Below, in pieces: positions 1 through 39,753 of a stretch of DNA of 64,000 bases. A model generated the notes under the pieces. That model was not told the DNA's origin. It searched no databases and saw only the letters and a list, made by a program, of their open reading frames with translations. A program made the position numbers and the translations under genes. Position 1 is the first letter of the stretch. Every line of letters begins with the position of its first letter. Source of the DNA: Klebsiella phage KPP2018; the sequence record NC_110934.1; one strand, written 5' to 3'.

Positions 1-64
1 TCTTGTTCTGTCATGTTGCTCCCCCAGTTCAATTTATGTAATTATTATACAGAACTTTTGGAAA

Positions 65-352
65 CTAAGCAACTACATTTTTTAAGAATTTGATGCCTTT
101 CTTTCTCTTCTTATATTTCCACGTTAATGGATTCTGTCGATTATGAACACTTGAGATCTTTGTCTCATCAAAGTTCTTCAATATCATGTAATCACAAGAT
201 AGTTGTTCTAATGGAATGTGATCACCGTCAAAAGCGTGTACATAAGGTTGTTGACTAGCACGATAATGATAGACTTTGTTAATTCTACGTTTCAGCGACT
301 TATCCGCGCAGTAAATAAAGAAGTTTTCAGGATGCATCAGCAGCTCCTTCAA
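65..352 (-). CDS. hypothetical protein (95 aa); duplicated at 29529-29816
   Basis: ORF track; directly upstream (in transcription) of it lie tRNA genes, probably co-transcribed. Confidence 0.5.
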   Translation of the reverse strand: MKELLMHPENFFIYCADKSLKRRINKVYHYRASQQPYVHAFDGDHIPLEQLSCDYMILKNFDETKISSVHNRQNPLTWKYKKRKKGIKFLKNVVA

Positions 353-354
353 TT

Positions 355-429
355 TGGTGCACCCTGTTCGTATCGAACGAACCTCTCAAGCTCTTCAGGC
401 AAGCGCTAATCCATCTCAGCTAAAGGTGC
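355..429 (-). tRNA. tRNA, anticodon loop CUGAAGA (GAA, Phe-like); anticodon stem has two U-U mismatches
   Basis: Reverse complement GCACCUU..GUUCG-UUCGAUA-CGAAC-AGGGUGC-A-CCA: 7-bp acceptor, D-arm, T-arm and encoded CCA. Confidence 0.65.
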
Positions 430-435
430 AAATTT

Positions 436-512
436 TGGCAGGGGTAAAGGTATTCGAAACCTTTTCATGGGTTTTGGAGGCCCATTTGCAACCTATGCGT
501 ACCCCAATTATT
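436..512 (-). ncRNA. tRNA-like remnant (T-arm AAGGU-UUCGAAU-ACCUU, U1-U72 mismatch, 9-nt anticodon loop); possibly pseudo-tRNA
   Basis: T-arm and acceptor recognisable but D-arm and anticodon arm non-canonical. Confidence 0.3.
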
Positions 513-515
513 AAT

Positions 516-590
516 TGGCACACCCAACGAGGATCGAACTCGTGTTCCCACTGTGAAAGAGTGGTGTCCTAACCGCTAGACGATAGGTGC
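516..590 (-). tRNA. tRNA-Glu (UUC)
   Basis: Revcomp has acceptor, D-arm GUCUAGCGGUUAGGAC, anticodon stem CCACU/AGUGG with loop CUUUCAC, T-arm GAGUUCGAUCCUCG, CCA. Confidence 0.85.
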
Positions 591-597
591 ATTAAAT

Positions 598-685
598 TGG
601 TGGGGAAAGATGGAGTCGAACCACCCGAGTCGCAATGACAACTGATTTACAGTCAGCTCTGCTACCACTTACAGAATATTTCCCC
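598..685 (-). tRNA. tRNA-Tyr (GUA), type II with long variable arm
   Basis: Revcomp GGGGAAA..; anticodon loop CUGUAAA; long variable arm; T-arm GGUUCGACUCC; acceptor GGGGAAA/UUUCCCC; CCA. Confidence 0.8.
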
Positions 686-815
686 ATATTTAGAAGTATT
701 CAAAAATTCTCATTTAAACACTTTTAAATATGTTTCCAAATTAGATAAATATTATATCAAGTTTTATAGTATTGGGCAAGTCAAATTTTAAAGAACTTGC
801 CCAATGCTGTATTAG

Positions 816-1091
816 TTAGTCGAACTTAGGAGTGACAGTTAAGGAGAACGGAAGTTCAAAAACTTCTTCGCCCTCATCACTAATAGTGATTACACGACCT
901 TTAAGTTCAGACATTGAAATATCAATATCAGCTTTTGCATCTGGAGCCATGCCAGCTTCAATACATTTAGCTTTAATTTCCGGCAGAAGTTCTACATCGT
1001 AGAAATAAAGCCATTCAATCTCACCTTCCCAGCCTTCCCAGGATTTACAGATTGCACTTTCAATACCAGCAGCTATAACACGATTTTGCAT
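816..1091 (-). CDS. hypothetical protein (91 aa)
   Basis: ORF track; preceded by conserved early promoter/leader; duplicated at 30280-30555. Confidence 0.55.
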   Translation of the reverse strand: MQNRVIAAGIESAICKSWEGWEGEIEWLYFYDVELLPEIKAKCIEAGMAPDAKADIDISMSELKGRVITISDEGEEVFELPFSLTVTPKFD

Positions 1092-1160
1092 TCGTTAACT
1101 CCTTCATCAATTTATATAACTATTATATCAGAAATTTAAAGCAAAAGGCAAGTACATTTT
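1092..1160 (-). promoter_or_regulatory. Conserved T5-type early promoter (-35 TTGCCT, 17 bp, -10 TATAAT) plus conserved leader/RBS
   Basis: Minus-strand reading: ..TTGCCTtttgctttaaatttctgaTATAATagttatataaattgatgaaggag; member of >20-copy element family. Confidence 0.7.
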
Positions 1161-1181
1161 TAAAAATTCTGTTTGGAGGAG

Positions 1182-1388
1182 CTAAACTCCAGATTCTTCA
1201 GCCAAGTCTAGACTAATAAGAGATATAGCCATAATTGCTGCTCCGTGCTCTTTTTCTCCAGTCTCTTTAGCTAGAGTTATAATATCAAGAAATTGCTTAT
1301 GAAAATCTGCAACCTCTTGAGTTATACCTGCCTCAGCAATCATGCCTTTAAGCATGAAGCGTTGTGCGGTAATTTCAGGATTAGCCAT
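1182..1388 (-). CDS. hypothetical protein (68 aa)
   Basis: ORF track; start ATG overlaps stop of upstream small ORF (ATGGCTAA coupling). Confidence 0.5.
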   Translation of the reverse strand: MANPEITAQRFMLKGMIAEAGITQEVADFHKQFLDIITLAKETGEKEHGAAIMAISLISLDLAEESGV

Positions 1389-1548
1389 GTTGTTTCTCCA
1401 GTTTCATCTTTAATAGTCTACAAATAAAATCAATGTCTTCATCCGTGCCTAGATCTCTATCTTCAAGGGTTGCCTTGAAGTTTTTAGTCAATTCCATGAG
1501 AATAACTTCTCTAGAACGACGTGTTGGCGGAGGTGGATGTCTATACAT
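1381..1548 (-). CDS. hypothetical small protein (55 aa, MYRHPPPPTRRSREVILMEL...)
   Basis: Unlisted (<60 aa) ORF; stop overlaps start of 1182-1388 gene, typical translational coupling. Confidence 0.4.
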   Translation of the reverse strand: MYRHPPPPTRRSREVILMELTKNFKATLEDRDLGTDEDIDFICRLLKMKLEKQHG

Positions 1549-1563
1549 CTTATTTCCTTAATT

Positions 1564-1640
1564 TGGTAGGGGTGGTGGGATTCGAACCCACAAAACCTGA
1601 ATTTTAAGTCCAGTACCTATGCCAATTCGATTACACCCCC
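1564..1640 (-). tRNA. tRNA, anticodon loop CUUAAAA (UAA, Leu-like) but type-I length with short variable loop
   Basis: Revcomp GGGGGUG..acceptor pairs with CACCCCU; anticodon stem CUGGA/UUCAG; T-arm GUGGG-UUCGAAU-CCCAC; A-CCA. Confidence 0.6.
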
Positions 1641-1647
1641 ATGTAGT

Positions 1648-1836
1648 TTAGTCAATTACTTTTGAGGCTTCAAGGTAGTCGATATAGTGTACGTTTTCTA
1701 CCGTAATCATATAATCCGCCACTTTATCCATAGCTTGGGCTTCAGAGGTAGCTCTGGCTAACCTATATCCTTTTCTATACTCATCCGGGTATTCTCTATC
1801 TTGAATAAACACAACATAAACTATATATAGATCCAT
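1648..1836 (-). CDS. hypothetical protein (62 aa)
   Basis: ORF track. Confidence 0.45.
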   Translation of the reverse strand: MDLYIVYVVFIQDREYPDEYRKGYRLARATSEAQAMDKVADYMITVENVHYIDYLEASKVID

Positions 1837-1855
1837 TTGTGACCTCTATTTAATT

Positions 1856-1933
1856 TGGTGGCTCCCCGAGGATTCGAACCTACGTACCTTCCGGTTATGA
1901 GCCGGGTGCTCATACCATATGAGCTTGAGAACC
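1856..1933 (-). tRNA. tRNA-Met/Ile2 (CAU)
   Basis: Revcomp GGUUCUC..; anticodon stem CCGG with loop CUCAUAA; T-loop UUCGAAU (T-stem has mismatches); acceptor with two G-U pairs; CCA. Confidence 0.65.
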
Positions 1934-1939
1934 AAAATC

Positions 1940-2028
1940 TGGCGGAAGAAGTGGGAATCGAACCCACAAGGCTATATTTCAAACCGACAGATTAGCAATC
2001 TGCTGCAATACCATTATGCTATTCTTCC
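1940..2028 (-). tRNA. tRNA-Ser (GCU), type II
   Basis: Revcomp GGAAGAA..; anticodon stem GCAGA/UCUGU, loop UUGCUAA; long variable arm; T-arm GUGGG-UUCGAUU-CCCAC; G-CCA. Confidence 0.8.
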
Positions 2029-2049
2029 GAATTTATAAGATATATTATA

Positions 2050-2571
2050 TTAGAAATTTAGCTTCATAGCAAGAAAATTTTTCAAGTTTTCGGTAGACAT
2101 CTCATCCACATCTACAGGAGAAACAAATCCATTTAATTGTCTAGCAAACTTTTCACCAGCAGGATCATTGTCCCCAACAGCTACCAATTTAAAAGGTAGT
2201 AATTTCAGTTGCTTTAATAACGCTTTTCCTGGAGAAGAACCCAACATTGCCAGGGCTGGATAACCCGCATTATGTAATGCAACTGCCTTAAATACAGATT
2301 CAGCAATCAATACTACTTTTTCATCCCCATTGAGAGTTTCTAGTCCCCATACACACTGTGTAGTAGAATAAGTAAAGTATTTAGCTTCAAAGGGGCACTT
2401 ACCATGACCTTTTGGAGCAGAAGGATTATAAGTTTGATAGCCCCTCAACATTCCAGAGAAATCATACAACGGGACTGTTAGCCACCCTTCCGGACTTAAC
2501 CAGCAATGATATTTATCTGTATCAAATCCTCTAGATAAGAGGTGCTGTGTTAGCTCATCAACATTCATATT
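2050..2571 (-). CDS. Toprim-domain protein (DnaG-primase-like Toprim: E in IAES, DxD in AVGDNDPAG)
   Basis: ORF track 2050-2619; real start is Met17 (MNVDELTQ..) because the conserved TATAAT+ATAAATTTGAGAGAGG leader ends there. Confidence 0.6.
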   Translation of the reverse strand, partial: NMNVDELTQHLLSRGFDTDKYHCWLSPEGWLTVPLYDFSGMLRGYQTYNPSAPKGHGKCPFEAKYFTYSTTQCVWGLETLNGDEKVVLIAESVFKAVALHNAGYPALAMLGSSPGKALLKQLKLLPFKLVAVGDNDPAGEKFARQLNGFVSPVDVDEMSTENLKNFLAMKLNF

Positions 2572-2663
2572 TGGTTCCTCTCTCAAATTTATAGATATAT
2601 TATACAGAGAATTTAGCATTCAAGCAATCAAATTTTTTAACTTTTTAGAGGAAAATCATAGGG

Positions 2664-2686
2664 CACTTAAGGGTAGCAGATAAGTG
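2664..2686 (+). promoter_or_regulatory. Inverted repeat CACTTAAG-N7-CTTAAGTG-like (CACTTA..TAAGTG), candidate operator upstream of Gly-rich gene promoter
   Basis: cacttaagggtagcagataagtg: 6-bp arms are reverse complements. Confidence 0.3.
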
Positions 2687-2744
2687 GTGAGGACCAAAAT
2701 TTGTGACCCCACTAAAAATCCAGGGGCAATTTTTAAAGACCCCT

Positions 2745-2772
2745 TGACATTTTCGCTGGGGTAGTGTAAAGT
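2745..2772 (+). promoter_or_regulatory. sigma70-like promoter (TTGACA, 16 bp, TAAAGT) for the Gly-rich protein operon; copy 1
   Basis: cccTTGACAttttcgctggggtagtgTAAAGTatatg; not of the conserved phage early-promoter class. Confidence 0.55.
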
Positions 2773-2834
2773 ATATGTTATGGATGAGTGATCAAAGAGA
2801 CACACATTTTCTATATACTAGGAGGTGTCAAAAA

Positions 2835-3611
2835 ATGACAGAAGAAGTAGCTAAGAGTCCTGAGACCGTCGCTAGCGTTGCAGCAGAACTGCACCGTCAC
2901 GAGGAATCAGATAAGAAAAAGTGGGAGAAGGTCAGAGCCTACGAAGAGAAACATCGTGAACACGATGAAGATGATGAAGAAGATGACGATGATGAGTATT
3001 GTCATAAATATGGAAAACGTAAAATGCAAGAACCAGTAAACGTATTCACTAGTGGCTTCCCTGGCCTAATGGGTGGTTACCCAGCAAACGCAGGTGCTTT
3101 CGGTGGTGAAGGTATGGGACTATTCGGAGCTATCCTAATCGGTGCTCTATTAACAGGCGGATTCGGTGGTTTTGGTGGATTTGGTGGACGTGGTGTAGTT
3201 GGTGAAGGTACCGCAGTTGATGCAGTACTTCAGAACCAAGATACCGCTAGTATTCTAGCAGCTATTAACACTACTCGTACAGAAGCTAACCAGGGTACTG
3301 GAGCTGTTTTAAGCGCAGTTAACAATGGTTTTAGCCAGACATCCCAAAACCAGAGCCGTGATACTCAGTCTGTACTAACTACGATCTATGGTACGGGTGC
3401 TAATCTGTCTAATCAAATCTGCCAGGAAACTCGCAACGTTATTCAGGGTCAGTTCGATCTTTCTCGCCAGATTGATCAATCTTTCGCAGCTAACCAGATA
3501 GCTCGTGCACAAGATAAGTTTGATTCTGCACAGATCGCTTTCCAGCAGACTTTACAAACTAATAACCAGTTTGCCGCTGTTCAGGCTCAGATGTGTGCTA
3601 ACCAGTTATGA
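2835..3611 (+). pseudogene. Truncated copy (258 aa + 1 junction aa) of Gly-zipper/QN-rich membrane protein gene; truncated at repeat boundary 3605/3606
   Basis: RBS AGGAGG 9 nt before ATG 2835; identical to first 257 codons of the 331-aa gene at 32299-33291, then reads L-stop across the junction. Confidence 0.75.
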
Positions 3612-29459: not shown

Positions 29460-29528
29460 ATTTATCTTGTTCTGTCATGTTGCTCCCCCAGTTCAATTTA
29501 TGTAATTATTATACAGAACTTTTGGAAA

Positions 29529-29816
29529 CTAAGCAACTACATTTTTTAAGAATTTGATGCCTTTCTTTCTCTTCTTATATTTCCACGTTAATGGATTCTG
29601 TCGATTATGAACACTTGAGATCTTTGTCTCATCAAAGTTCTTCAATATCATGTAATCACAAGATAGTTGTTCTAATGGAATGTGATCACCGTCAAAAGCG
29701 TGTACATAAGGTTGTTGACTAGCACGATAATGATAGACTTTGTTAATTCTACGTTTCAGCGACTTATCCGCGCAGTAAATAAAGAAGTTTTCAGGATGCA
29801 TCAGCAGCTCCTTCAA
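29529..29816 (-). CDS. hypothetical protein (95 aa), repeat copy 2 of 65-352
   Basis: Identical to copy 1. Confidence 0.5.
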   Translation of the reverse strand: MKELLMHPENFFIYCADKSLKRRINKVYHYRASQQPYVHAFDGDHIPLEQLSCDYMILKNFDETKISSVHNRQNPLTWKYKKRKKGIKFLKNVVA

Positions 29817-29818
29817 TT

Positions 29819-29893
29819 TGGTGCACCCTGTTCGTATCGAACGAACCTCTCAAGCTCTTCAGGCAAGCGCTAATCCATCTCAGCTAAAGGTGC
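29819..29893 (-). tRNA. tRNA (GAA, Phe-like), copy 2
   Basis: Identical to 355-429. Confidence 0.65.
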
Positions 29894-29979
29894 AAATTTT
29901 GGCAGGGGTAAAGGTATTCGAAACCTTTTCATGGGTTTTGGAGGCCCATTTGCAACCTATGCGTACCCCAATTATTAAT

Positions 29980-30054
29980 TGGCACACCCAACGAGGATCG
30001 AACTCGTGTTCCCACTGTGAAAGAGTGGTGTCCTAACCGCTAGACGATAGGTGC
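29980..30054 (-). tRNA. tRNA-Glu (UUC), copy 2
   Basis: Identical to 516-590. Confidence 0.85.
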
Positions 30055-30061
30055 ATTAAAT

Positions 30062-30149
30062 TGGTGGGGAAAGATGGAGTCGAACCACCCGAGTCGCAAT
30101 GACAACTGATTTACAGTCAGCTCTGCTACCACTTACAGAATATTTCCCC
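30062..30149 (-). tRNA. tRNA-Tyr (GUA), copy 2
   Basis: Identical to 598-685. Confidence 0.8.
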
Positions 30150-30279
30150 ATATTTAGAAGTATTCAAAAATTCTCATTTAAACACTTTTAAATATGTTTC
30201 CAAATTAGATAAATATTATATCAAGTTTTATAGTATTGGGCAAGTCAAATTTTAAAGAACTTGCCCAATGCTGTATTAG

Positions 30280-30555
30280 TTAGTCGAACTTAGGAGTGAC
30301 AGTTAAGGAGAACGGAAGTTCAAAAACTTCTTCGCCCTCATCACTAATAGTGATTACACGACCTTTAAGTTCAGACATTGAAATATCAATATCAGCTTTT
30401 GCATCTGGAGCCATGCCAGCTTCAATACATTTAGCTTTAATTTCCGGCAGAAGTTCTACATCGTAGAAATAAAGCCATTCAATCTCACCTTCCCAGCCTT
30501 CCCAGGATTTACAGATTGCACTTTCAATACCAGCAGCTATAACACGATTTTGCAT
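30280..30555 (-). CDS. hypothetical protein (91 aa), copy 2
   Basis: Identical to 816-1091. Confidence 0.55.
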   Translation of the reverse strand: MQNRVIAAGIESAICKSWEGWEGEIEWLYFYDVELLPEIKAKCIEAGMAPDAKADIDISMSELKGRVITISDEGEEVFELPFSLTVTPKFD

Positions 30556-30645
30556 TCGTTAACTCCTTCATCAATTTATATAACTATTATATCAGAAATT
30601 TAAAGCAAAAGGCAAGTACATTTTTAAAAATTCTGTTTGGAGGAG

Positions 30646-30852
30646 CTAAACTCCAGATTCTTCAGCCAAGTCTAGACTAATAAGAGATATAGCCATAATT
30701 GCTGCTCCGTGCTCTTTTTCTCCAGTCTCTTTAGCTAGAGTTATAATATCAAGAAATTGCTTATGAAAATCTGCAACCTCTTGAGTTATACCTGCCTCAG
30801 CAATCATGCCTTTAAGCATGAAGCGTTGTGCGGTAATTTCAGGATTAGCCAT
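30646..30852 (-). CDS. hypothetical protein (68 aa), copy 2
   Basis: Identical to 1182-1388. Confidence 0.5.
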   Translation of the reverse strand: MANPEITAQRFMLKGMIAEAGITQEVADFHKQFLDIITLAKETGEKEHGAAIMAISLISLDLAEESGV

Positions 30853-31027
30853 GTTGTTTCTCCAGTTTCATCTTTAATAGTCTACAAATAAAATCAATGT
30901 CTTCATCCGTGCCTAGATCTCTATCTTCAAGGGTTGCCTTGAAGTTTTTAGTCAATTCCATGAGAATAACTTCTCTAGAACGACGTGTTGGCGGAGGTGG
31001 ATGTCTATACATCTTATTTCCTTAATT

Positions 31028-31104
31028 TGGTAGGGGTGGTGGGATTCGAACCCACAAAACCTGAATTTTAAGTCCAGTACCTATGCCAATTCGATTACAC
31101 CCCC
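31028..31104 (-). tRNA. tRNA (UAA, Leu-like, type-I length), copy 2
   Basis: Identical to 1564-1640. Confidence 0.6.
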
Positions 31105-31111
31105 ATGTAGT

Positions 31112-31300
31112 TTAGTCAATTACTTTTGAGGCTTCAAGGTAGTCGATATAGTGTACGTTTTCTACCGTAATCATATAATCCGCCACTTTATCCATAGCTT
31201 GGGCTTCAGAGGTAGCTCTGGCTAACCTATATCCTTTTCTATACTCATCCGGGTATTCTCTATCTTGAATAAACACAACATAAACTATATATAGATCCAT
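31112..31300 (-). CDS. hypothetical protein (62 aa), copy 2
   Basis: Identical to 1648-1836. Confidence 0.45.
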   Translation of the reverse strand: MDLYIVYVVFIQDREYPDEYRKGYRLARATSEAQAMDKVADYMITVENVHYIDYLEASKVID

Positions 31301-31319
31301 TTGTGACCTCTATTTAATT

Positions 31320-31397
31320 TGGTGGCTCCCCGAGGATTCGAACCTACGTACCTTCCGGTTATGAGCCGGGTGCTCATACCATATGAGCTTGAGAACC
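31320..31397 (-). tRNA. tRNA-Met/Ile2 (CAU), copy 2
   Basis: Identical to 1856-1933. Confidence 0.65.
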
Positions 31398-31403
31398 AAA
31401 ATC

Positions 31404-31492
31404 TGGCGGAAGAAGTGGGAATCGAACCCACAAGGCTATATTTCAAACCGACAGATTAGCAATCTGCTGCAATACCATTATGCTATTCTTCC
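31404..31492 (-). tRNA. tRNA-Ser (GCU), copy 2
   Basis: Identical to 1940-2028. Confidence 0.8.
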
Positions 31493-31513
31493 GAATTTAT
31501 AAGATATATTATA

Positions 31514-32035
31514 TTAGAAATTTAGCTTCATAGCAAGAAAATTTTTCAAGTTTTCGGTAGACATCTCATCCACATCTACAGGAGAAACAAATCCATTTAA
31601 TTGTCTAGCAAACTTTTCACCAGCAGGATCATTGTCCCCAACAGCTACCAATTTAAAAGGTAGTAATTTCAGTTGCTTTAATAACGCTTTTCCTGGAGAA
31701 GAACCCAACATTGCCAGGGCTGGATAACCCGCATTATGTAATGCAACTGCCTTAAATACAGATTCAGCAATCAATACTACTTTTTCATCCCCATTGAGAG
31801 TTTCTAGTCCCCATACACACTGTGTAGTAGAATAAGTAAAGTATTTAGCTTCAAAGGGGCACTTACCATGACCTTTTGGAGCAGAAGGATTATAAGTTTG
31901 ATAGCCCCTCAACATTCCAGAGAAATCATACAACGGGACTGTTAGCCACCCTTCCGGACTTAACCAGCAATGATATTTATCTGTATCAAATCCTCTAGAT
32001 AAGAGGTGCTGTGTTAGCTCATCAACATTCATATT
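31514..32035 (-). CDS. Toprim-domain protein, copy 2
   Basis: Identical to 2050-2571. Confidence 0.6.
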   Translation of the reverse strand, partial: NMNVDELTQHLLSRGFDTDKYHCWLSPEGWLTVPLYDFSGMLRGYQTYNPSAPKGHGKCPFEAKYFTYSTTQCVWGLETLNGDEKVVLIAESVFKAVALHNAGYPALAMLGSSPGKALLKQLKLLPFKLVAVGDNDPAGEKFARQLNGFVSPVDVDEMSTENLKNFLAMKLNF

Positions 32036-32208
32036 TGGTTCCTCTCTCAAATTTATAGATATATTATACAGAGAATTTAGCATTCAAGCAATCAAATTTT
32101 TTAACTTTTTAGAGGAAAATCATAGGGCACTTAAGGGTAGCAGATAAGTGGTGAGGACCAAAATTTGTGACCCCACTAAAAATCCAGGGGCAATTTTTAA
32201 AGACCCCT

Positions 32209-32236
32209 TGACATTTTCGCTGGGGTAGTGTAAAGT
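32209..32236 (+). promoter_or_regulatory. sigma70-like promoter (TTGACA-16-TAAAGT) of Gly-rich/Q-rich/Cys-rich operon, copy 2
   Basis: Identical to 2745-2772. Confidence 0.55.
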
Positions 32237-32298
32237 ATATGTTATGGATGAGTGATCAAAGAGACACACATTTTCTATATACTAGGAGGTGTCAAAAA

Positions 32299-33291
32299 AT
32301 GACAGAAGAAGTAGCTAAGAGTCCTGAGACCGTCGCTAGCGTTGCAGCAGAACTGCACCGTCACGAGGAATCAGATAAGAAAAAGTGGGAGAAGGTCAGA
32401 GCCTACGAAGAGAAACATCGTGAACACGATGAAGATGATGAAGAAGATGACGATGATGAGTATTGTCATAAATATGGAAAACGTAAAATGCAAGAACCAG
32501 TAAACGTATTCACTAGTGGCTTCCCTGGCCTAATGGGTGGTTACCCAGCAAACGCAGGTGCTTTCGGTGGTGAAGGTATGGGACTATTCGGAGCTATCCT
32601 AATCGGTGCTCTATTAACAGGCGGATTCGGTGGTTTTGGTGGATTTGGTGGACGTGGTGTAGTTGGTGAAGGTACCGCAGTTGATGCAGTACTTCAGAAC
32701 CAAGATACCGCTAGTATTCTAGCAGCTATTAACACTACTCGTACAGAAGCTAACCAGGGTACTGGAGCTGTTTTAAGCGCAGTTAACAATGGTTTTAGCC
32801 AGACATCCCAAAACCAGAGCCGTGATACTCAGTCTGTACTAACTACGATCTATGGTACGGGTGCTAATCTGTCTAATCAAATCTGCCAGGAAACTCGCAA
32901 CGTTATTCAGGGTCAGTTCGATCTTTCTCGCCAGATTGATCAATCTTTCGCAGCTAACCAGATAGCTCGTGCACAAGATAAGTTTGATTCTGCACAGATC
33001 GCTTTCCAGCAGACTTTACAAACTAATAACCAGTTTGCCGCTGTTCAGGCTCAGATGTGTGCTAACCAGAACTCTCTGGAACGTCAGATCGCTGAATGTT
33101 GCTGTGAACTTCAGACTGCGATCGCTGGTGTAACTACTGCGCGTATCCAGGATGAGTTAGACGCATGTCGCCTACGTGAAGCAATCGCTGCGGGTAGCGG
33201 TGCTAACGGTCAGGTAATTAATCAAATCGCTTTAAGTCTTGGTGCTATCACTCAGACTCTGGCTGGTCTGCAGGCTAAACTGCCGGCTTAA
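32299..33291 (+). CDS. Gly-zipper membrane protein with acidic N-terminus and Q/N/S/T-rich coiled C-terminal domain (331 aa)
   Basis: RBS AGGAGG; acidic DEDDEEDDDDE stretch, hydrophobic GLFGAILIGALLTGGFGGFGGFGG segment, then QN-rich low-complexity domain with CCC motif; ~50% GC vs ~38% background. Confidence 0.65.
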   Translation: MTEEVAKSPETVASVAAELHRHEESDKKKWEKVRAYEEKHREHDEDDEEDDDDEYCHKYGKRKMQEPVNVFTSGFPGLMGGYPANAGAFGGEGMGLFGAILIGALLTGGFGGFGGFGGRGVVGEGTAVDAVLQNQDTASILAAINTTRTEANQGTGAVLSAVNNGFSQTSQNQSRDTQSVLTTIYGTGANLSNQICQETRNVIQGQFDLSRQIDQSFAANQIARAQDKFDSAQIAFQQTLQTNNQFAAVQAQMCANQNSLERQIAECCCELQTAIAGVTTARIQDELDACRLREAIAAGSGANGQVINQIALSLGAITQTLAGLQAKLPA

Positions 33292-33312
33292 TATTAATGG
33301 GAGGAGCCCATT

Positions 33313-33729
33313 ATGAGTAAATATGGTTTTGTAAATAACGGACTTAATCAAAGTATGGGCTCCCAGCAGCCCATTCCGGGTCTGGATAACCCCTACTTAC
33401 AACAATTGCAACAGCGTTTAGCAGAAGCGCAACAGATGCAGCAACAACTCCAGCAAAACCCTGGAAGTGTGAGTCCTATGCAAATGATGCAGCAAATGAG
33501 CGGGCAGTCGCAAATGCCCCAACAAATGCAGCAACAGATGCCGCAGCAGCAAGTTCAGCAACAAACCCAACAACCGCAGGTTTCTGCGGAAGGACAGGCA
33601 GTACTAGCCCTTTTCGAAGACTTCGCAAAGACAGAGGATGGGAAGCAGCTTGTATCACTTATGGGTAAGTTTAATAGCTTCTGCCAAAGCCAAGTTGCAA
33701 AAGCTCAAAATGGTGGTAATAACTCCTAA
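33313..33729 (+). CDS. poly-Q / Q-M-P-rich low-complexity protein (138 aa)
   Basis: RBS GGGAGG; QQLQQRLAEAQQMQQQLQQ..MQQQMPQQQVQQQTQQPQ; structured C-terminal ~45 aa. Confidence 0.6.
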   Translation: MSKYGFVNNGLNQSMGSQQPIPGLDNPYLQQLQQRLAEAQQMQQQLQQNPGSVSPMQMMQQMSGQSQMPQQMQQQMPQQQVQQQTQQPQVSAEGQAVLALFEDFAKTEDGKQLVSLMGKFNSFCQSQVAKAQNGGNNS

Positions 33730-33738
33730 GGAGGAATT

Positions 33739-33933
33739 ATGTGTTGCAGAAAATCTGTTTCGTGCTGCCCAATGCCTGTAGCACGTTGTTGCTCTTCAGC
33801 AATGTTTACACAAATACCGGCGTTCAATCCGTTTGCCTTTAAGCCTACTCTTATCCTGCCCCCTAGAGTAGATTTTCAGTCAAGGTTGGCCTCCCGTATG
33901 GGTGGTTGCTGTAATAAGAGTATATGGTTCTAA
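33739..33933 (+). CDS. Cys-rich peptide (64 aa) with four Cys-Cys doublets (MCCRKSVSCCPMPVARCCSS...GGCCNKSIWF)
   Basis: RBS AAGGAGG 5 nt upstream; followed by intrinsic terminator. Confidence 0.55.
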   Translation: MCCRKSVSCCPMPVARCCSSAMFTQIPAFNPFAFKPTLILPPRVDFQSRLASRMGGCCNKSIWF

Positions 33934-33944
33934 AGAACCAAACA

Positions 33945-33985
33945 ATAAAGCCCCTAGTCGAAAGACTTAGGGGCTTTTCTTTTAT
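33945..33985 (+). terminator. Rho-independent terminator (AGCCCCUAGUC-gaaa-GACUUAGGGGCU + UUUUCUUUU)
   Basis: Perfect 11-bp stem, tetraloop, U-tract. Confidence 0.75.
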
Positions 33986-33999
33986 CTTAAATACAGAAA

Positions 34000-34040
34000 A
34001 ACCCTGCGCTCTTCAGGGAACGCAGGGCTTACTTCAGATG
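34000..34040 (-). terminator. Rho-independent terminator for convergent SPFH gene (CCCUGCG stem, U-tract on minus strand)
   Basis: aaaaaccctgcgctcttcagggaacgcagggctt; hairpin with poly-U when read on minus strand. Confidence 0.65.
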
Positions 34041-34053
34041 TTACATGCGGGTA

Positions 34054-35001
34054 TTATTTATTACGCATATCCATGATCATTTGACCATCGTAGCCAGTAC
34101 CTACCACAGTCTGGGGTACACCACCTTGATATTTCTGAGCACGAATCATTTCGACTTCCAGTTGCTTCCAGCGAATCATCTCAGGAGTAATGGTACGTTG
34201 TAATGCGGCGTTAGCTTCAGCTTCTTTCTTAGCTGCGTATAGTTTAGCATCTGCGTCACGTTCATTGGCAATAGCTTGGTTGTTGCGGGCTTCACGATCT
34301 GCTTCTGCTTGTTTAACTTTTTGCTGTGCTTCCTGCTCAACACGAGCTAATTCAGCTTTAGCAGCATTAACCTGTTCTTCACGAACTTTGGTATTCTGTA
34401 CCTGTTCCATGATTACCGGTGGCAAAGTAATATCCTGAAGGAACACCTGCTTAACTGTGTAACCATATGGGCGTGCATACTCTTCAACTTCCTGTTGAAT
34501 TGCAGTTTGCAATTGAGCCTGAATTTTAGCATCAAACAAATCTTGTGCTTTAGGTACAGACTTACCAAACTCACGAATAGTAGACAGTAATTTTTCAGTT
34601 ACATATTTGTCTAACGCTTGATCCTGAGTACCTGCATTAATACGGTTAATTGGTGCCTTAGAACCATCAAACTGCAACATAACAGTCAGGTCAACAGTGG
34701 ATTTAAACTTATCCTGACTAGGAACCTGAAGTTTATCTAATTTTAGAGCAATATCTTTAGTACTAAAAGTATCGAAAGAAGCAAAAGGATTTACAATATG
34801 AAAGCCGGGTAATACTGGGCTAGGGTCAACTTTACCCAGGAAAGTCTGGGTTTTAACAGTACCGTCTTGAACAACAGTATAGGAGTTAAGGGCCAGAACT
34901 AAACCTACCAAACCAACTGCAGCACCAATACCCCAACGTTTGATATTACGCATCAATTTTTGCTCATAAGTCAGTTCTTTAGTGTTTTTAGTAGCAAACA
35001 T
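34054..35001 (-). CDS. SPFH/band-7 (HflC/HflK/prohibitin-like) membrane protein
   Basis: N-terminal TM helix, core GFHIVNPF..(cf. HflC GLHFKIPF), long Ala/Gln/Glu coiled-coil tail. Confidence 0.75.
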   Translation of the reverse strand: MFATKNTKELTYEQKLMRNIKRWGIGAAVGLVGLVLALNSYTVVQDGTVKTQTFLGKVDPSPVLPGFHIVNPFASFDTFSTKDIALKLDKLQVPSQDKFKSTVDLTVMLQFDGSKAPINRINAGTQDQALDKYVTEKLLSTIREFGKSVPKAQDLFDAKIQAQLQTAIQQEVEEYARPYGYTVKQVFLQDITLPPVIMEQVQNTKVREEQVNAAKAELARVEQEAQQKVKQAEADREARNNQAIANERDADAKLYAAKKEAEANAALQRTITPEMIRWKQLEVEMIRAQKYQGGVPQTVVGTGYDGQMIMDMRNK

Positions 35002-35690: not shown

Positions 35691-35944
35691 ACTACATAAG
35701 TGATTTCCACACCCCACTATTTATAAATTAGAGAAGAGTTTAGGGGAGAGGTTTCAGACGCCTCATTTTACACGTTCTAGCCACTAACCGGGATTGCCGC
35801 CCCCTGTGTACTAGTTTTACAACTAACCCACCGACTCTATTCAATGCGCTCCGGTTAGGATTCTGCACTCAGCGTAATCGGCTCGCTGTTCCCTAATTTA
35901 TGAATATATTATACAGAATTTAAAGGCATTTAGCAAATAAATTT

Positions 35945-36388
35945 TTAATTAAATTCGCCAGCAATCTGAGCAGCAGTACCACCATCATAACGCCCAGGAA
36001 ATTCTTCCTTAATCGCTTTCATCAGCATACCTTTTGTAATTCCAGGGTTTAGCTTAACTAATTCTGCAAAGTATTTACGAATCTCAGTATCAGATAACTG
36101 AGGAGGCAGATACTCCTGCAACCACTTATTTAGAATGTATTCATACTGAGCGGACTGCAAGCTATAACTATCAAGATCTTGACCATGAAGTTTAGCTTTC
36201 ATCTGGTTAATGCTTTTTAGTTGCGCTTTGAGATAAGACACAAATTGTTCAGAAGTGATGAAATCTTTATCAATACGCTGAAGATCCCCGATTATGGTCT
36301 GATAGCTTTTAGCGACTTCTTTATCAGAACCATTAAACTTAGAATCCTGCAAAGCTCTACGCAAAACATCTAAAATATTCTCTTCCAT
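35945..36388 (-). CDS. GatB/YqeY-domain protein
   Basis: C-terminal ..ITKGMLMKAIKEEFPGRYDGGTAAQIAGE resembles YqeY family. Confidence 0.5.
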   Translation of the reverse strand: MEENILDVLRRALQDSKFNGSDKEVAKSYQTIIGDLQRIDKDFITSEQFVSYLKAQLKSINQMKAKLHGQDLDSYSLQSAQYEYILNKWLQEYLPPQLSDTEIRKYFAELVKLNPGITKGMLMKAIKEEFPGRYDGGTAAQIAGEFN

Positions 36389-36626
36389 TATTTCATTCCT
36401 AACGCTTGGTTAAAAGATTGTTCTGTCATAACTGCTGAGACTTTGGCGAAATCAAACTTTTTAGGGTTAGTAGTAATTTCAGCCACGTTAGATGTTTTAA
36501 CAGTTTTCGTAGTACGAATACCGCGAGTGTTAACACCAATAATTACAACTGATTTCATATTTCACTTCCTCTCATTAATTTATGAAAGTATTATACAGAA
36601 ATTTAAGTAGTTAAGCAAGTAAATTT

Positions 36627-37094
36627 TTAAGTTTTAGTGACAACAGGTTTATAGAACGTATGTCCCTTAATCTTAGTTGTTTTCTTAAATTTCTTTGTCC
36701 AGTAAGGTTTATCTTTACCACTATGGAAGTATAGTGCTCCATGTGTAGGATCTTGTGGTAAATCAACGTAGTATATCACTCTAGCTAAATTCTTAGCGGT
36801 TTGCCAAGCCTCATCAGTTTTATCAACTTTTGGTCTCTTAGATACCCAAGAGAACTGGTTAGACTGATATACTACTTTACAGTAGGAATCTGGGAATTTA
36901 CCGGAGTTTACACGGTTTTTAGTAACATGTGCAATCGCCGTCATTCCCTTTATGCCCTCACCACGACTCTCGAAATAGATATTTTTAGCAATGCAATCTA
37001 TTTCTTTTGCATCGTGCGATGCCTGACTACTAAAGCTGAAGGTAAGGGCAGCTACTAAAAGCAAAGCTGCCTTCATTCTTTTTACTCCTGCCAA
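36627..37094 (-). CDS. secreted cell-wall hydrolase (SleB/CwlJ-like Hydrolase_2 domain)
   Basis: Signal peptide; IAKNIYFESRGEG..GMTAIAHVTKNRV..QFSW motifs. Confidence 0.7.
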   Translation of the reverse strand: MAGVKRMKAALLLVAALTFSFSSQASHDAKEIDCIAKNIYFESRGEGIKGMTAIAHVTKNRVNSGKFPDSYCKVVYQSNQFSWVSKRPKVDKTDEAWQTAKNLARVIYYVDLPQDPTHGALYFHSGKDKPYWTKKFKKTTKIKGHTFYKPVVTKT

Positions 37095-39516: not shown

Positions 39517-39753
39517 TTAAAGAGCTGTCTCTTTAATAGACTCCCACTTCTTGGGGTCTTTAAAACCAGGAAGCATATCCTCACTGACATCCCAGTTCTC
39601 TTCCATAGAGAAGTCGGGCCATTCATTCCAGCTACCTTCCAGCTCTTCATAACAGCTGTCCATTACCTCATGACTAGAAAGTCGTGTATAATCTCTAGCG
39701 GACTTATGAGTGCTAGCACGGTTAAAATCATTCTTTACTACAAAATTACGCAT
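39517..39753 (-). CDS. hypothetical acidic protein (78 aa)
   Basis: ORF track; followed by hairpin GGGGCGAAAGCCCC. Confidence 0.45.
   Translation of the reverse strand: MRNFVVKNDFNRASTHKSARDYTRLSSHEVMDSCYEELEGSWNEWPDFSMEENWDVSEDMLPGFKDPKKWESIKETAL

What the first reader, a model, noticed from the sequence alone, without database searches (positions are those of the whole stretch)
32209..33985. GC-rich three-gene operon under a host-like sigma70 promoter: Gly-zipper/QN-rich membrane protein, poly-Q protein and a CC-doublet peptide
The operon is unlike the surrounding early genes.
- It has a TTGACA-16-TAAAGT promoter with an upstream inverted repeat, not the conserved phage promoter cassette.
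- The three consecutive plus-strand genes have strong RBSs and ~50% GC.
- It ends in a textbook intrinsic terminator.

Products:
- A 331-aa protein: an acidic DE-tract, a GLFGAILIGALLTGGFGGFGGFGG glycine-zipper TM segment, and a ~200-aa Gln/Asn/Ser/Thr-rich coiled domain with a CCC motif.
- A 138-aa protein that is about 35% Gln (QQLQQRLAEAQQMQQQLQQ..MQQQMPQQQVQQQTQQPQ), prion-like in composition.
- A 64-aa peptide with four Cys-Cys doublets (CC..CC..CC..CC).

I cannot assign any of these to a known family from sequence. The composition suggests a membrane-associated assembly or condensate, or a metal/redox-active peptide. The 5' third of this operon is what is duplicated in the 3.6-kb repeat.
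Basis: seen in the sequence. Interest (0 to 1): 0.8.

Follow-up and report, generated by a model that had tools for sequence, protein, structure and literature searches.

The report
Mobile three-gene envelope cassette of T5-like phages
This is the long-annotated but never characterised T5.077-T5.079 operon: a dispensable three-gene unit that also occurs in unrelated phages and encodes a membrane protein with an almost invariant Cys-Cys-Cys motif, a helical partner and a small basic "Met-Cys-Cys" peptide, none of known function.

Summary
The window is a T5-like phage. The locus is the counterpart of T5.077/078/079, annotated in T5 and BF23 as promoter P12, three hypothetical ORFs and terminator ter1.

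New here:
- **Dispensable and polymorphic.** It lies inside the T5 st0 deletion. It is cleanly absent from phages SH9 and Bas33, and about a third of matching T5-like records match only the terminator.
- **Mobile.** The same trio plus terminator occurs in an N4-like phage and in Pseudomonas phages RSP and KPP23.
- **Gene 1 has a large family.** It has 727 cluster representatives, including crAss-like gut phages. CCC is present in 135 of 142 full-length members. No Pfam, NCBIfam or PADLOC match, and no annotated PHROG.
- **Gene 3 is real.** pN/pS is 0.14-0.57 and it starts Met-Cys-Cys in all 8 distinct cassettes.
- **The poly-Q tract of gene 2 is a variable linker**, not the conserved part.

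Resemblance to influenza HA2 and coronavirus S2 HR1 is no stronger than a reversed-sequence control.

Best guess: an accessory module acting at the cell envelope, with an N-in/C-out anchored helical ectodomain and two cytoplasmic partners. It is not a virion part and not T5's canonical spanin. Function remains unproven.

The parts
32208..32236 (+). sigma70-type promoter (TTGACA, 17-nt spacer, TAAAGT), counterpart of T5/BF23 promoter P12
   Evidence: Promoter scan. T5 and BF23 annotate P12 at the equivalent place. TTGACA and TA(A/G)AGT are conserved in T5-like loci L092 and L093. It is not a member of the early-promoter repeat families.
32284..32289 (+). AGGAGG ribosome-binding site of gene 1, 9 nt before the ATG
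   Evidence: Sequence. BF23 annotates an RBS at the equivalent place.
32299..33291 (+). Gene 1 (330 aa), homologue of T5.077 / BF23 'ORF 326aa'. Layout: acidic cytoplasmic N-domain, Gly-rich hydrophobic segment, about 200-aa helical Gln/Asn/Ser/Thr-rich domain carrying CCC
   Evidence: PHROG 8119, unknown function. 727 family representatives. The AF2 model is helical but low confidence.
32404..32460 (+). Asp/Glu(/His)-rich tract of gene 1 (residues 36-54)
   Evidence: Replaced by His-rich tracts in some homologues.
32581..32652 (+). Gly-rich hydrophobic segment GLFGAILIGALLTGGFGGFGGFGG (residues 95-118), the presumed membrane anchor
   Evidence: Kyte-Doolittle 19-residue maximum 1.72. The segment is conserved across the family.
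33097..33105 (+). Cys267-Cys268-Cys269 codons (TGT TGC TGT), the family's signature
   Evidence: Invariant in the 69-sequence alignment. Present in 135 of 142 full-length family representatives, and followed by Glu or Asp in 97 of those 135.
33300..33304 (+). GGAGG ribosome-binding site of gene 2
   Evidence: BF23 annotation.
33313..33729 (+). Gene 2 (138 aa), homologue of T5.078. Layout: conserved N-terminal helix, variable Gln/Pro-rich linker, invariant C-terminal helical hairpin with one invariant Cys
   Evidence: PHROG 7894, unknown function.
33580..33711 (+). Conserved C-terminal module of gene 2 (residues 90-133, VSAEGQAVLALFEDFAKTEDGKQLVSLMGKFNSFCQSQVAKAQ)
   Evidence: Nearly invariant in alignment A6. 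AF2 pLDDT 78-88, helix-turn-helix hairpin.
33728..33734 (+). AAGGAGG ribosome-binding site of gene 3
   Evidence: BF23 annotation.
33739..33933 (+). Gene 3 (64 aa), homologue of T5.079: basic (+7) Pro/Phe-rich peptide that starts Met-Cys-Cys and has four CC doublets
   Evidence: The ORF is kept in all 8 distinct cassettes and always starts MCC. pN/pS 0.14-0.57. Only 1 of 995 window ORFs starts MCC, and 0 of 60 gut-phage loci have such an ORF.
33947..33985 (+). Intrinsic terminator (stem AAAGCCCCUAGUC / GACUUAGGGGCUUU plus U-tract), counterpart of T5/BF23 ter1
   Evidence: It is retained in T5-like phages that lack the cassette.
33999..34030 (-). Second hairpin, terminating the convergent SPFH gene. 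It holds the GCGC (34006-34009) that matches the annotated T5/BF23 single-strand nick site
   Evidence: The nick is annotated in T5 at 39746-39747 and in BF23; the coordinate offset from T5 is 5738.
2744..3611 (+). Second, truncated copy of the promoter and the first 257 codons of gene 1, inside the exact 3.6-kb duplication (window 1-3605)
   Evidence: The junction at 3605/3606 occurs in none of 272 phage records. The sequence after it maps about 7-7.5 kb into relatives, in the terminal-repeat region.

Best explanation
The locus is the accessory operon T5.077-T5.079 of T5-like phages, running from promoter P12 to terminator ter1. It is a self-contained, horizontally mobile 'moron' that is not needed for growth, virion structure or lysis in the laboratory.

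**Proposed assembly**
- Protein 1 inserts in the inner membrane through its Gly-rich hydrophobic segment.
- Its acidic N-domain stays in the cytoplasm. Its helical Gln/Asn/Ser/Thr-rich domain of about 200 aa lies in the periplasm.
- There the conserved cysteines, above all Cys-Cys-Cys, cross-link or lock an oligomer. The highly conserved C-terminal tip contacts a host envelope component common to enterobacteria and Pseudomonas.
- Protein 2 (two conserved helical modules joined by a disposable Gln-rich linker) and protein 3 (a basic Met-Cys-Cys peptide) stay in the cytoplasm. They dock on the acidic N-terminal extension, which only the cassette-type versions of protein 1 have.

**Proposed role**
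The module changes the envelope of the infected cell to the phage's advantage in nature. Most likely it excludes superinfecting phages or stabilises the envelope and so affects lysis timing.

**Shown:** identity, real coding status of all three genes, dispensability, presence/absence polymorphism, mobility, family size, conserved motifs.

**Inferred:** topology, oligomer and disulfides, the partner interactions, and the biological role.
For: **Identity**
- 232 T5-like records match at up to 98.7%.
- The T5 and BF23 annotations show the same layout.

**Dispensable and polymorphic**
- The T5 st0 deletion spans T5p066 to T5p079. Local BLAST finds no cassette in the fetched 24-40 kb stretch of the st0 record, which spans the deletion junction.
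- SH9 and Bas33 keep both flanking genes but lack the cassette.
- Of 337 records that match the distal third of the operon, 216 cover at least 80% of it; the listed rows below that match only the terminator.

**Mobile unit**
- The same three genes plus a terminator occur in distant T5-like contigs, beside an N4-type virion RNA polymerase gene, and in P. aeruginosa phages RSP and KPP23.
- GC is 45-47% against 39% for the window.

**Membrane anchor and orientation**
- Kyte-Doolittle maximum 1.72.
- In the family there are more Lys+Arg before the segment than after it: 2.45 against 0.88.
- Five conserved Cys lie after the segment, whereas the N-domain Cys are not conserved.

**Partners**
- Gene 2 and the MCC peptide are found only with versions of protein 1 that carry the N-terminal extension.
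- 0 of 60 gut-phage loci have an MCC ORF.
- Charges are complementary: protein 3 is +7, and the N-domain has 24 Asp+Glu.

**Not the canonical spanin**
Against: - There are no expression, localisation or phenotype data for these genes anywhere. No paper mentions T5.077-079.
- The one T5-like RNA-seq dataset I found is from Bas33, which lacks the cassette.
- Topology rests only on hydropathy and a weak positive-inside bias.
- The hydrophobic core is short in some family members (LLIGALLF flanked by Gly, with an Arg) and could be a peripheral or fusion-peptide-like segment instead.
- Heptad periodicity is not significant, and the AF2 model has mean pLDDT 49.
- If protein 3 is cytoplasmic, its CC doublets cannot form disulfides and need another explanation, such as metal binding.
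- In gut phages the family sits at the head of the late/structural block, which would equally suit a virion or assembly role for those members.
Confidence: 0.4

Rival explanations
1. Accessory lysis or membrane-fusion module. Protein 1 acts like an inner-membrane spanin or a class I fusogen (hydrophobic Gly-rich peptide plus long helices plus a Cys lock). The small cationic Pro-rich protein 3 attacks or bridges to the outer membrane after holin triggering, like Rz1 or the phiKT 'disruptin' peptide.
For: - Family profiles hit influenza HA2/HEF2 starting at the fusion peptide, and coronavirus HR1 (E 6e-4 to 0.03).
- In 51 gut-phage loci the family gene lies just downstream of holin-like, endolysin-like and u-spanin-like genes.
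- Protein 3 is small, basic, Pro-rich and Cys-bearing.
- crAss-like genomes label the gene 'spike protein/glycoprotein' or 'viral fiber'.
Against: - A reversed-sequence control profile reaches the same E-value range against an S2 HR1 mimic (8e-4). The similarity is therefore compositional, not demonstrable homology.
- There is no signal peptide or lipobox ORF anywhere in the cassette.
- T5-like phages already carry a canonical two-component spanin (PMC4342426, PMC11664485).
- T5 st0 and the cassette-less relatives exist as viable phages.
- There is no second membrane anchor.
Confidence: 0.15
2. Cytoplasmic or membrane-proximal metal- or redox-binding complex, or a condensate. The Cys clusters (CCC, CC doublets, the invariant Cys of protein 2) and the Asp/Glu/His tract bind metal or an Fe-S cluster. 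The FG/GLFG-like and Gln-rich parts drive self-association.
For: - Cys motifs are the most conserved features: CCC in 135 of 142, MCC in 8 of 8 distinct cassettes, and an invariant Cys124 in protein 2.
- His-rich versions of the N-domain exist, for example HYHHHHHEHY.
- Proteins 2 and 3 have no export signal.
- In myovirus locus L003 a weak ferritin-like hit lies two genes downstream of the family gene (E 6e-4, below the curated cutoff).
Against: - The Gln tract is not conserved in length.
- There are no CxxC or CxC patterns typical of metallothioneins or zinc ribbons.
- Most family members lack the acidic/His domain and both partner genes.
- No matching family in Pfam or NCBIfam.
Confidence: 0.1
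3. Virion-associated fibre, needle or ejection protein whose hydrophobic peptide enters the host membrane at infection.
For: - In gut phages and a myovirus the family gene lies between tail-fibre or lysis genes and head-tail genes.
- It is labelled 'outer capsid protein/viral fiber' in crAss-like records.
- The composition resembles Gln/Asn/Ser/Thr-rich phage fibre stalks.
Against: - For T5, the st0 strain lacks the cassette yet is routinely used for virion structural work (my own knowledge).
- The cassette is absent from about a third of matching T5-like records.
- In T5-like and N4-like phages it sits among early or middle genes in the opposite orientation, with its own promoter.
Confidence: 0.07

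Closest known systems
Two-component spanin (lambda Rz / Rz1)
   Same: Protein 1 resembles an i-spanin: an N-terminal membrane segment followed by a long helical periplasmic domain with conserved cysteines. Protein 3 is small, Pro-rich and Cys-bearing, like mature Rz1. Relatives in gut phages lie next to lysis genes.
   Different: - Protein 3 has no signal peptide or lipobox.
- The cassette lies outside the T5 lysis cassette.
- T5-like phages already have Rz/Rz1-type spanins.
- The cassette is dispensable and polymorphic.
- Protein 1 has a 90-aa cytoplasmic domain, and there is a third, cytoplasmic partner.
Class I viral fusion proteins (influenza HA2/HEF2, coronavirus S2 HR1)
   Same: A Gly-rich hydrophobic peptide (GLFGAI... 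is identical to the start of HA2), followed by Gln/Asn/Ser/Thr/Ala/Ile-rich helices and a Cys cluster. Profile hits at E 6e-4 to 0.03.
   Different: - A reversed-sequence control scores as well, so homology is not shown.
- There is no C-terminal transmembrane anchor.
- There is no evidence of an HR2 or six-helix bundle.
- The hydrophobic peptide is internal in the T5 type.
- These are tailed, non-enveloped phages.
Superinfection-exclusion and envelope 'moron' genes of virulent phages (T4 Imm/Sp, T5 Llp)
   Same: Non-essential genes with patchy distribution, acting on the envelope, carried by virulent phages as independent units.
   Different: No sequence or architectural similarity. Those are single small proteins or lipoproteins, whereas this is a three-gene unit with a 330-aa anchor protein. 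No exclusion phenotype has been tested.
Interchain cystine knots of trimeric fibres (collagen III Cys-Cys, matrilin/COMP coiled coils)
   Same: Adjacent cysteines inside or next to a helical oligomerisation domain. This is a known way to lock oligomers covalently in an oxidising compartment.
   Different: Eukaryotic extracellular proteins. A triple Cys followed by Glu or Asp is not their motif. The oligomeric state here is unknown.

Membership tests
Two-component spanin (Rz/Rz1) | i-spanin: N-terminal transmembrane domain followed by a periplasmic helical domain with intermolecular-disulfide cysteines | tested here: inconclusive
   A hydrophobic segment (Kyte-Doolittle 1.72), predicted helices and conserved Cys are present. 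However, the segment is internal, after a 94-aa N-domain, and topology was not shown.
Two-component spanin (Rz/Rz1) | o-spanin: small outer-membrane lipoprotein with a signal peptide and a lipobox Cys | tested here: not met
   No ORF on the + strand of 32200-33990 has a lipobox after a basic N-terminus. Protein 3 starts directly with Met-Cys-Cys.
Two-component spanin (Rz/Rz1) | Part of the phage's lysis cassette and needed for outer-membrane disruption | tested here: not met
   T5-like phages have holin, endolysin and inner and outer spanins elsewhere (PMC4342426, PMC11664485). The cassette is deleted in T5 st0 and absent from SH9 and Bas33.
Class I viral fusion protein | Statistically supported sequence or structure relationship to HA2, S2 or gp41-type proteins | tested here: inconclusive
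   Forward profiles hit HA2/HEF2 at E 6e-4 to 0.03 and S2 HR1 at 0.005. A reversed control profile hits an S2 HR1 mimic at 8e-4. The AF2 model is too poor for a fold search.
Class I viral fusion protein | C-terminal transmembrane anchor plus a second heptad repeat that forms a trimer of hairpins | tested here: not met
   There is only one hydrophobic segment. Heptad periodicity of the C-terminal domain is no better than shuffles (z = 1.0).
Pfam glycine-zipper membrane families (Gly-zipper_Omp, Gly-zipper_YMGG, Rick_17kDa_Anti, GlsB/YeaQ/YmgE) | Match to the family HMM | tested here: not met
   No such Pfam hit for protein 1 at E up to 1, nor for 69 family members at E up to 0.01.
Prion-like / Gln-rich condensate-forming proteins | A Gln/Asn-rich tract that is itself the conserved, functional element | tested here: not met
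   Gln content is 27.5%. The tract varies from about 45 to about 10 residues among homologues, while the flanking modules are invariant.
Metallothionein-like or zinc-ribbon Cys peptides | CxC / CxxC spacing, Cys content of 20-30%, or a match to a known metal-binding family | tested here: not met
   Protein 3 has 8 Cys in 64 residues (12.5%), all as CC doublets. Distant homologues have only two doublets. There is no family match. Metal binding itself cannot be tested with these tools.
Known anti-phage defence proteins (PADLOC) | Match to a PADLOC model | tested here: not met
   No hits at E up to 0.1 for any of the three proteins or for the neighbouring SPFH protein.
PHROG 8119 / 16490 / 9288 (uncharacterised phage protein family with the CCC motif) | HMM match, Gly-rich hydrophobic segment and Cys-Cys-Cys motif | tested here: met
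   PHROG 8119 at E 2e-204. 61 of 69 relatives match PHROG 16490. CCC is invariant in A2 and present in 135 of 142 representatives.

The most novel reading that the evidence does not exclude
The CCC proteins are a previously unrecognised, very widespread class of phage membrane-remodelling proteins, found from T5-, N4- and KPP23-like phages to crAss-like gut phages. They would share the working principle of class I viral fusogens: a Gly-rich membrane-inserting peptide, long helices and a cysteine lock. In the T5-type cassette they would be controlled from the cytoplasm by a helical adaptor and a Met-Cys-Cys peptide, possibly through a shared metal or thiol switch. That would be a new kind of envelope-acting phage system.
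Probability: 0.15. Interest if true: 0.85.

Novelty: categorically new. Interest (0 to 1): 0.55.

Why it matters
- **A model phage with an unexplained operon.** T5 has carried these three conserved, clearly expressed-looking genes for 20 years of annotation without any function, and none of them resembles a characterised protein.
- **It is not a T5 oddity.** The cassette moves between unrelated virulent phages of enterobacteria and Pseudomonas. Its anchor protein belongs to a family of more than 700 sequence clusters that reaches into crAss-like phages, among the most abundant viruses of the human gut.
- **One phenotype would go a long way.** A phenotype for the cassette would annotate hundreds of phage genomes at once.
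- **A ready-made experiment exists.** Natural presence/absence pairs such as T5 against T5 st0, or cassette-bearing against cassette-less BASEL phages, can be compared directly.
- **Caveat.** Most phage genes are of unknown function, so 'unknown' alone is not remarkable. The almost invariant triple-Cys motif and the Met-Cys-Cys peptide are the unusual parts.

Tried and rejected
- **Family libraries.** Pfam, PHROGs, NCBIfam and PADLOC scans of all three proteins gave only unannotated PHROGs. Scans of 69 relatives gave the same.
- **Solved structures by sequence.** A single-sequence PDB search gave nothing. Profile searches gave HA2/S2-like hits that I discount after the reversed-profile control.
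- **Structure prediction.** AF2 of protein 1 has mean pLDDT 49 and is unusable for fold search. AF2 of protein 2 gives a confident C-terminal hairpin only. Foldseek found nothing in the PDB, and in viral models only one match at E 2e-6 (41% identical, unnamed entry W8VT10, which I take to be the KPP23 orthologue).
- **Literature.** There are no papers on T5.077-079 and none linking phage proteins of this kind to class I fusogens.
- **Expression data.** The Bas33 dataset (PMC13250531) is useless here because Bas33 lacks the cassette. Klimuk et al. 2020 tested the divergent promoter P15A but not P12.
- **Spanin hypothesis.** Rejected as the main reading. There is no lipobox ORF and canonical spanins are present elsewhere in T5-like phages.
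- **'Gene 3 is a spurious ORF'.** Rejected by pN/pS and by conservation in 8 distinct cassettes.
- **'Coiled coil'.** Not supported by a simple heptad test.
- **Searches that added little.** The search for related loci with the full 69-sequence alignment failed for lack of a conserved stretch. A scan with the T5-type alignment returned only T5-like isolates plus weak distant hits.
Full report
**1. The observation.**
- A sigma70-type promoter: TTGACA at 32208, a 17-nt spacer, TAAAGT ending at 32236.
- Three + strand ORFs with strong ribosome-binding sites: 32299-33291 (330 aa), 33313-33729 (138 aa) and 33739-33933 (64 aa).
- A hairpin plus U-tract at 33947-33985, folding at -20.7 kcal/mol, z = -5.6.
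- The promoter is not one of the 65-67-nt early-promoter units that recur 15-18 times in the window.
- Corrections: GC is 45-47% against 39% for the window. Protein 2 is 27.5% Gln. The upstream inverted repeat is weak.

**2. What it is.** The window is a T5-like phage (Tequintavirus/Epseptimavirus). 232 phage records match the region, at up to 98.7% identity.
- In T5 (NC_005859) the same unit is annotated as promoter P12, T5.077, T5.078, T5.079 (all hypothetical) and an 'efficient bidirectional rho-independent terminator'. One of the T5 single-strand nicks follows directly.
- The BF23 record annotates P12, ORF 326aa, ORF 138aa, ORF 64aa, their ribosome-binding sites and ter1.
- The sequence feature itself is therefore long known. 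No paper in the library mentions these genes.

**3. Dispensable and polymorphic.**
- The T5 st0 record marks a recombination site that removes T5p066 to T5p079. Local BLAST finds neither the cassette nor its two flanking genes in the fetched 24-40 kb stretch that spans the deletion junction. Wild-type T5 has the cassette at 90% identity.
- Epseptimavirus SH9 and Tequintavirus Bas33 (HildyBeyeler) keep both flanking genes (NadR- or primase-like, and the SPFH gene). They have only the terminator, or 44 nt, between them.
- Of 337 records that match the distal part of the operon, 216 cover at least 80% of it. Among the listed rows, those below that match only the last ~90 nt, the terminator.

**4. 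A mobile three-gene unit.** Distant homologues of protein 1 (35-63% identity) are each followed by a homologue of protein 2, a small ORF starting Met-Cys-Cys, and a terminator. (The short contig L096 ends inside gene 2.) This holds in the following places:
- divergent T5-like contigs (L092, L093);
- a contig carrying an N4-type virion RNA polymerase (L094);
- a 62-kb phage identical in this gene to P. aeruginosa phages RSP and KPP23 (L095).

In T5-like and N4-like genomes the unit points against the surrounding genes. Together with the raised GC, this marks an independently transcribed, horizontally exchanged accessory cassette.

**5. Protein 1.**

Layout:
- Residues 1-94 are acidic (24 Asp+Glu); in some homologues this domain is His-rich.
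- Residues 95-118 form the only hydrophobic segment (Kyte-Doolittle 1.72).
- Residues 126-330 are 38% Gln/Asn/Ser/Thr and predicted helical, but at low confidence.

Family:
- A profile search of 1.84 billion representatives finds 727 relatives at E up to 1e-3, and 188 at up to 1e-10. The best 150 listed are 111-370 aa.
- CCC is invariant in a 69-sequence alignment. It is present in 135 of 142 full-length representatives, usually followed by Glu or Asp.
- Two layouts exist. CCC lies at about 75% of the length in the T5 type, and at about 50% in the gut type, which adds a Pro/aromatic C-terminal tail.
- The family corresponds to PHROGs 8119, 16490 and 9288, all unannotated.
- It has no Pfam, NCBIfam or PADLOC match.

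Gut-phage context:
- In 51 gut and rumen phage loci the gene heads a conserved block: a 113-aa protein, a 171-aa protein, an acidic Arg/Tyr-rich peptide, DUF7841, and a small HExxH protein that occupies the position annotated 'PolyVal metallopeptidase' in Bacteroides phage C3_41T2LP.
- That block lies just after holin-like, endolysin-like and u-spanin-like genes and a small DNA-binding protein.
- crAss-like records call the gene 'outer capsid protein/viral fiber' or 'spike protein/glycoprotein'.

**6. The fusion-protein resemblance and its control.**
- Family profiles hit influenza HA2 and HEF2 from the fusion peptide onward, and coronavirus S2 HR1, at E 6e-4 to 0.03. GLFGAI is also the start of HA2.
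- A profile built from the same 16 sequences reversed hits an S2 HR1 mimic at E 8e-4, and also hits apolipophorin III.
- The similarity therefore reflects composition and general layout. Homology is not shown.
- A heptad test is also not significant.

**7. Protein 2.** It is confined to the cassette.
- Conserved parts: an N-terminal helix (NPYLQQLQQRLxEAQ), and a nearly invariant 42-aa C-terminal hairpin with one invariant Cys (pLDDT 78-88).
- The Gln/Pro tract between them shrinks from about 45 to about 10 residues in distant homologues.
- No fold relatives were found.

**8. Protein 3.** Gene callers rarely call it; there is one cluster in 5.8 billion. It is nevertheless real.
- The frame is open in all 8 distinct cassettes, and pN/pS is 0.14-0.57. 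The two other reading frames of the same stretch carry 2 and 4 stop codons.
- All versions start Met-Cys-Cys, have 2-4 CC doublets and carry almost no acidic residues (none, or a single Asp). The window's version has net charge +7.
- Only 1 of 995 ORFs in the window starts MCC. None of 60 gut-type loci has such an ORF downstream.
- There is no signal peptide or lipobox.

**9. How it most likely works.**
- Dispensability, polymorphism and mobility point to an accessory function.
- The single hydrophobic segment, the weak positive-inside bias, and conserved cysteines only on its C-terminal side point to an N-in/C-out membrane protein acting in the periplasm.
- Genes 2 and 3 occur only with the acidic N-terminal extension. 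This suggests a cytoplasmic sub-complex. Protein 3 is strongly basic, which would suit binding to that extension.
- Because unrelated phages of enterobacteria and Pseudomonas carry it, the target is probably a host envelope component.
- I favour an envelope-modifying accessory role, either superinfection exclusion or envelope and lysis-timing control, at about 0.4.
- Rivals are a spanin- or fusogen-like lysis accessory (0.15), a metal, redox or condensate complex (0.1) and a virion protein (0.07, unlikely for T5).
- None of this is tested experimentally.

**10. Novelty.**
- The ORFs are long annotated; their function is not known.
- What appears to be new: the cassette's mobility and polymorphism, the size and signature of the protein 1 family, the reality and signature of the MCC peptide, and the demotion of the poly-Q tract to a linker.
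- It matches no characterised system. In that sense it lies outside the known kinds, but a new mechanism is not demonstrated.

Noticed in passing
window 1-3605 and 29465-33069; junction at 3605/3606: An exact 3605-bp direct duplication ends abruptly inside gene 1, leaving a truncated ORF at 2775-3611. The junction is in none of 272 matching phage records. The sequence after it maps about 7-7.5 kb into relatives, in the terminal-repeat region. This looks like an assembly chimera or a very recent rearrangement.
   Followed up: partly
window 34054-35001 (-): The convergent neighbour, annotated 'lipoprotein' in T5 (T5.080), is an SPFH/Band 7 domain protein with one N-terminal membrane segment (Pfam E 2.5e-17). 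It is kept in phages that lack the cassette.
   Followed up: partly
window 33999-34030, GCGC at 34006-34009: The second terminator hairpin contains the GCGC that corresponds to the annotated T5/BF23 single-strand interruption just downstream of ter1 (T5 39746-39747).
   Followed up: no
window, 18 sites, for example 32042-32106, 35887-35951, 36569-36633: A 65-67-nt conserved early-promoter unit recurs 15-18 times. Klimuk et al. 2020 (PMC7472727) report that T5 early promoters have ATATT after the -10 element. P12 has ATATG there, a 4 of 5 match, so its temporal class is open.
   Followed up: partly
window 33727-33741: In this phage gene 3 is in the same frame as gene 2, three codons after its stop (TAA GGA GGA ATT ATG). 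Read-through would fuse them. The frame relation is not kept in L092 or L093.
   Followed up: partly
L090 8215-8781 (crAss-like phage cr4_1, NC_055893): An annotated CDS two genes downstream of the CCC gene has 7 in-frame stops under table 11. This fits stop-codon reassignment in this crAss-like phage.
   Followed up: no
L010-L089 (gut and rumen phage loci), genes +1 to +5 after the CCC gene: A tightly conserved block of unknown function follows the family gene: a 113-aa beta-rich protein, a 171-aa protein, an acidic Arg/Tyr-rich 70-88-aa peptide, DUF7841 and a small HExxH protein. Bacteroides phage C3_41T2LP annotates the gene in that last position as a PolyVal metallopeptidase.
   Followed up: partly
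L003 5263-5649 and 7179-7748: In an unrelated myovirus the CCC gene has a Gln-rich 128-aa protein two genes upstream and a weakly ferritin-like 189-aa protein two genes downstream (E 6e-4, below the cutoff). A collagen-repeat tail-fibre gene lies upstream.
   Followed up: no
window 31514-32083 (-): The divergent neighbour is the small Toprim/primase-like protein (T5.076 counterpart), transcribed from the early promoter P15a equivalent at 32042-32106.
   Followed up: no
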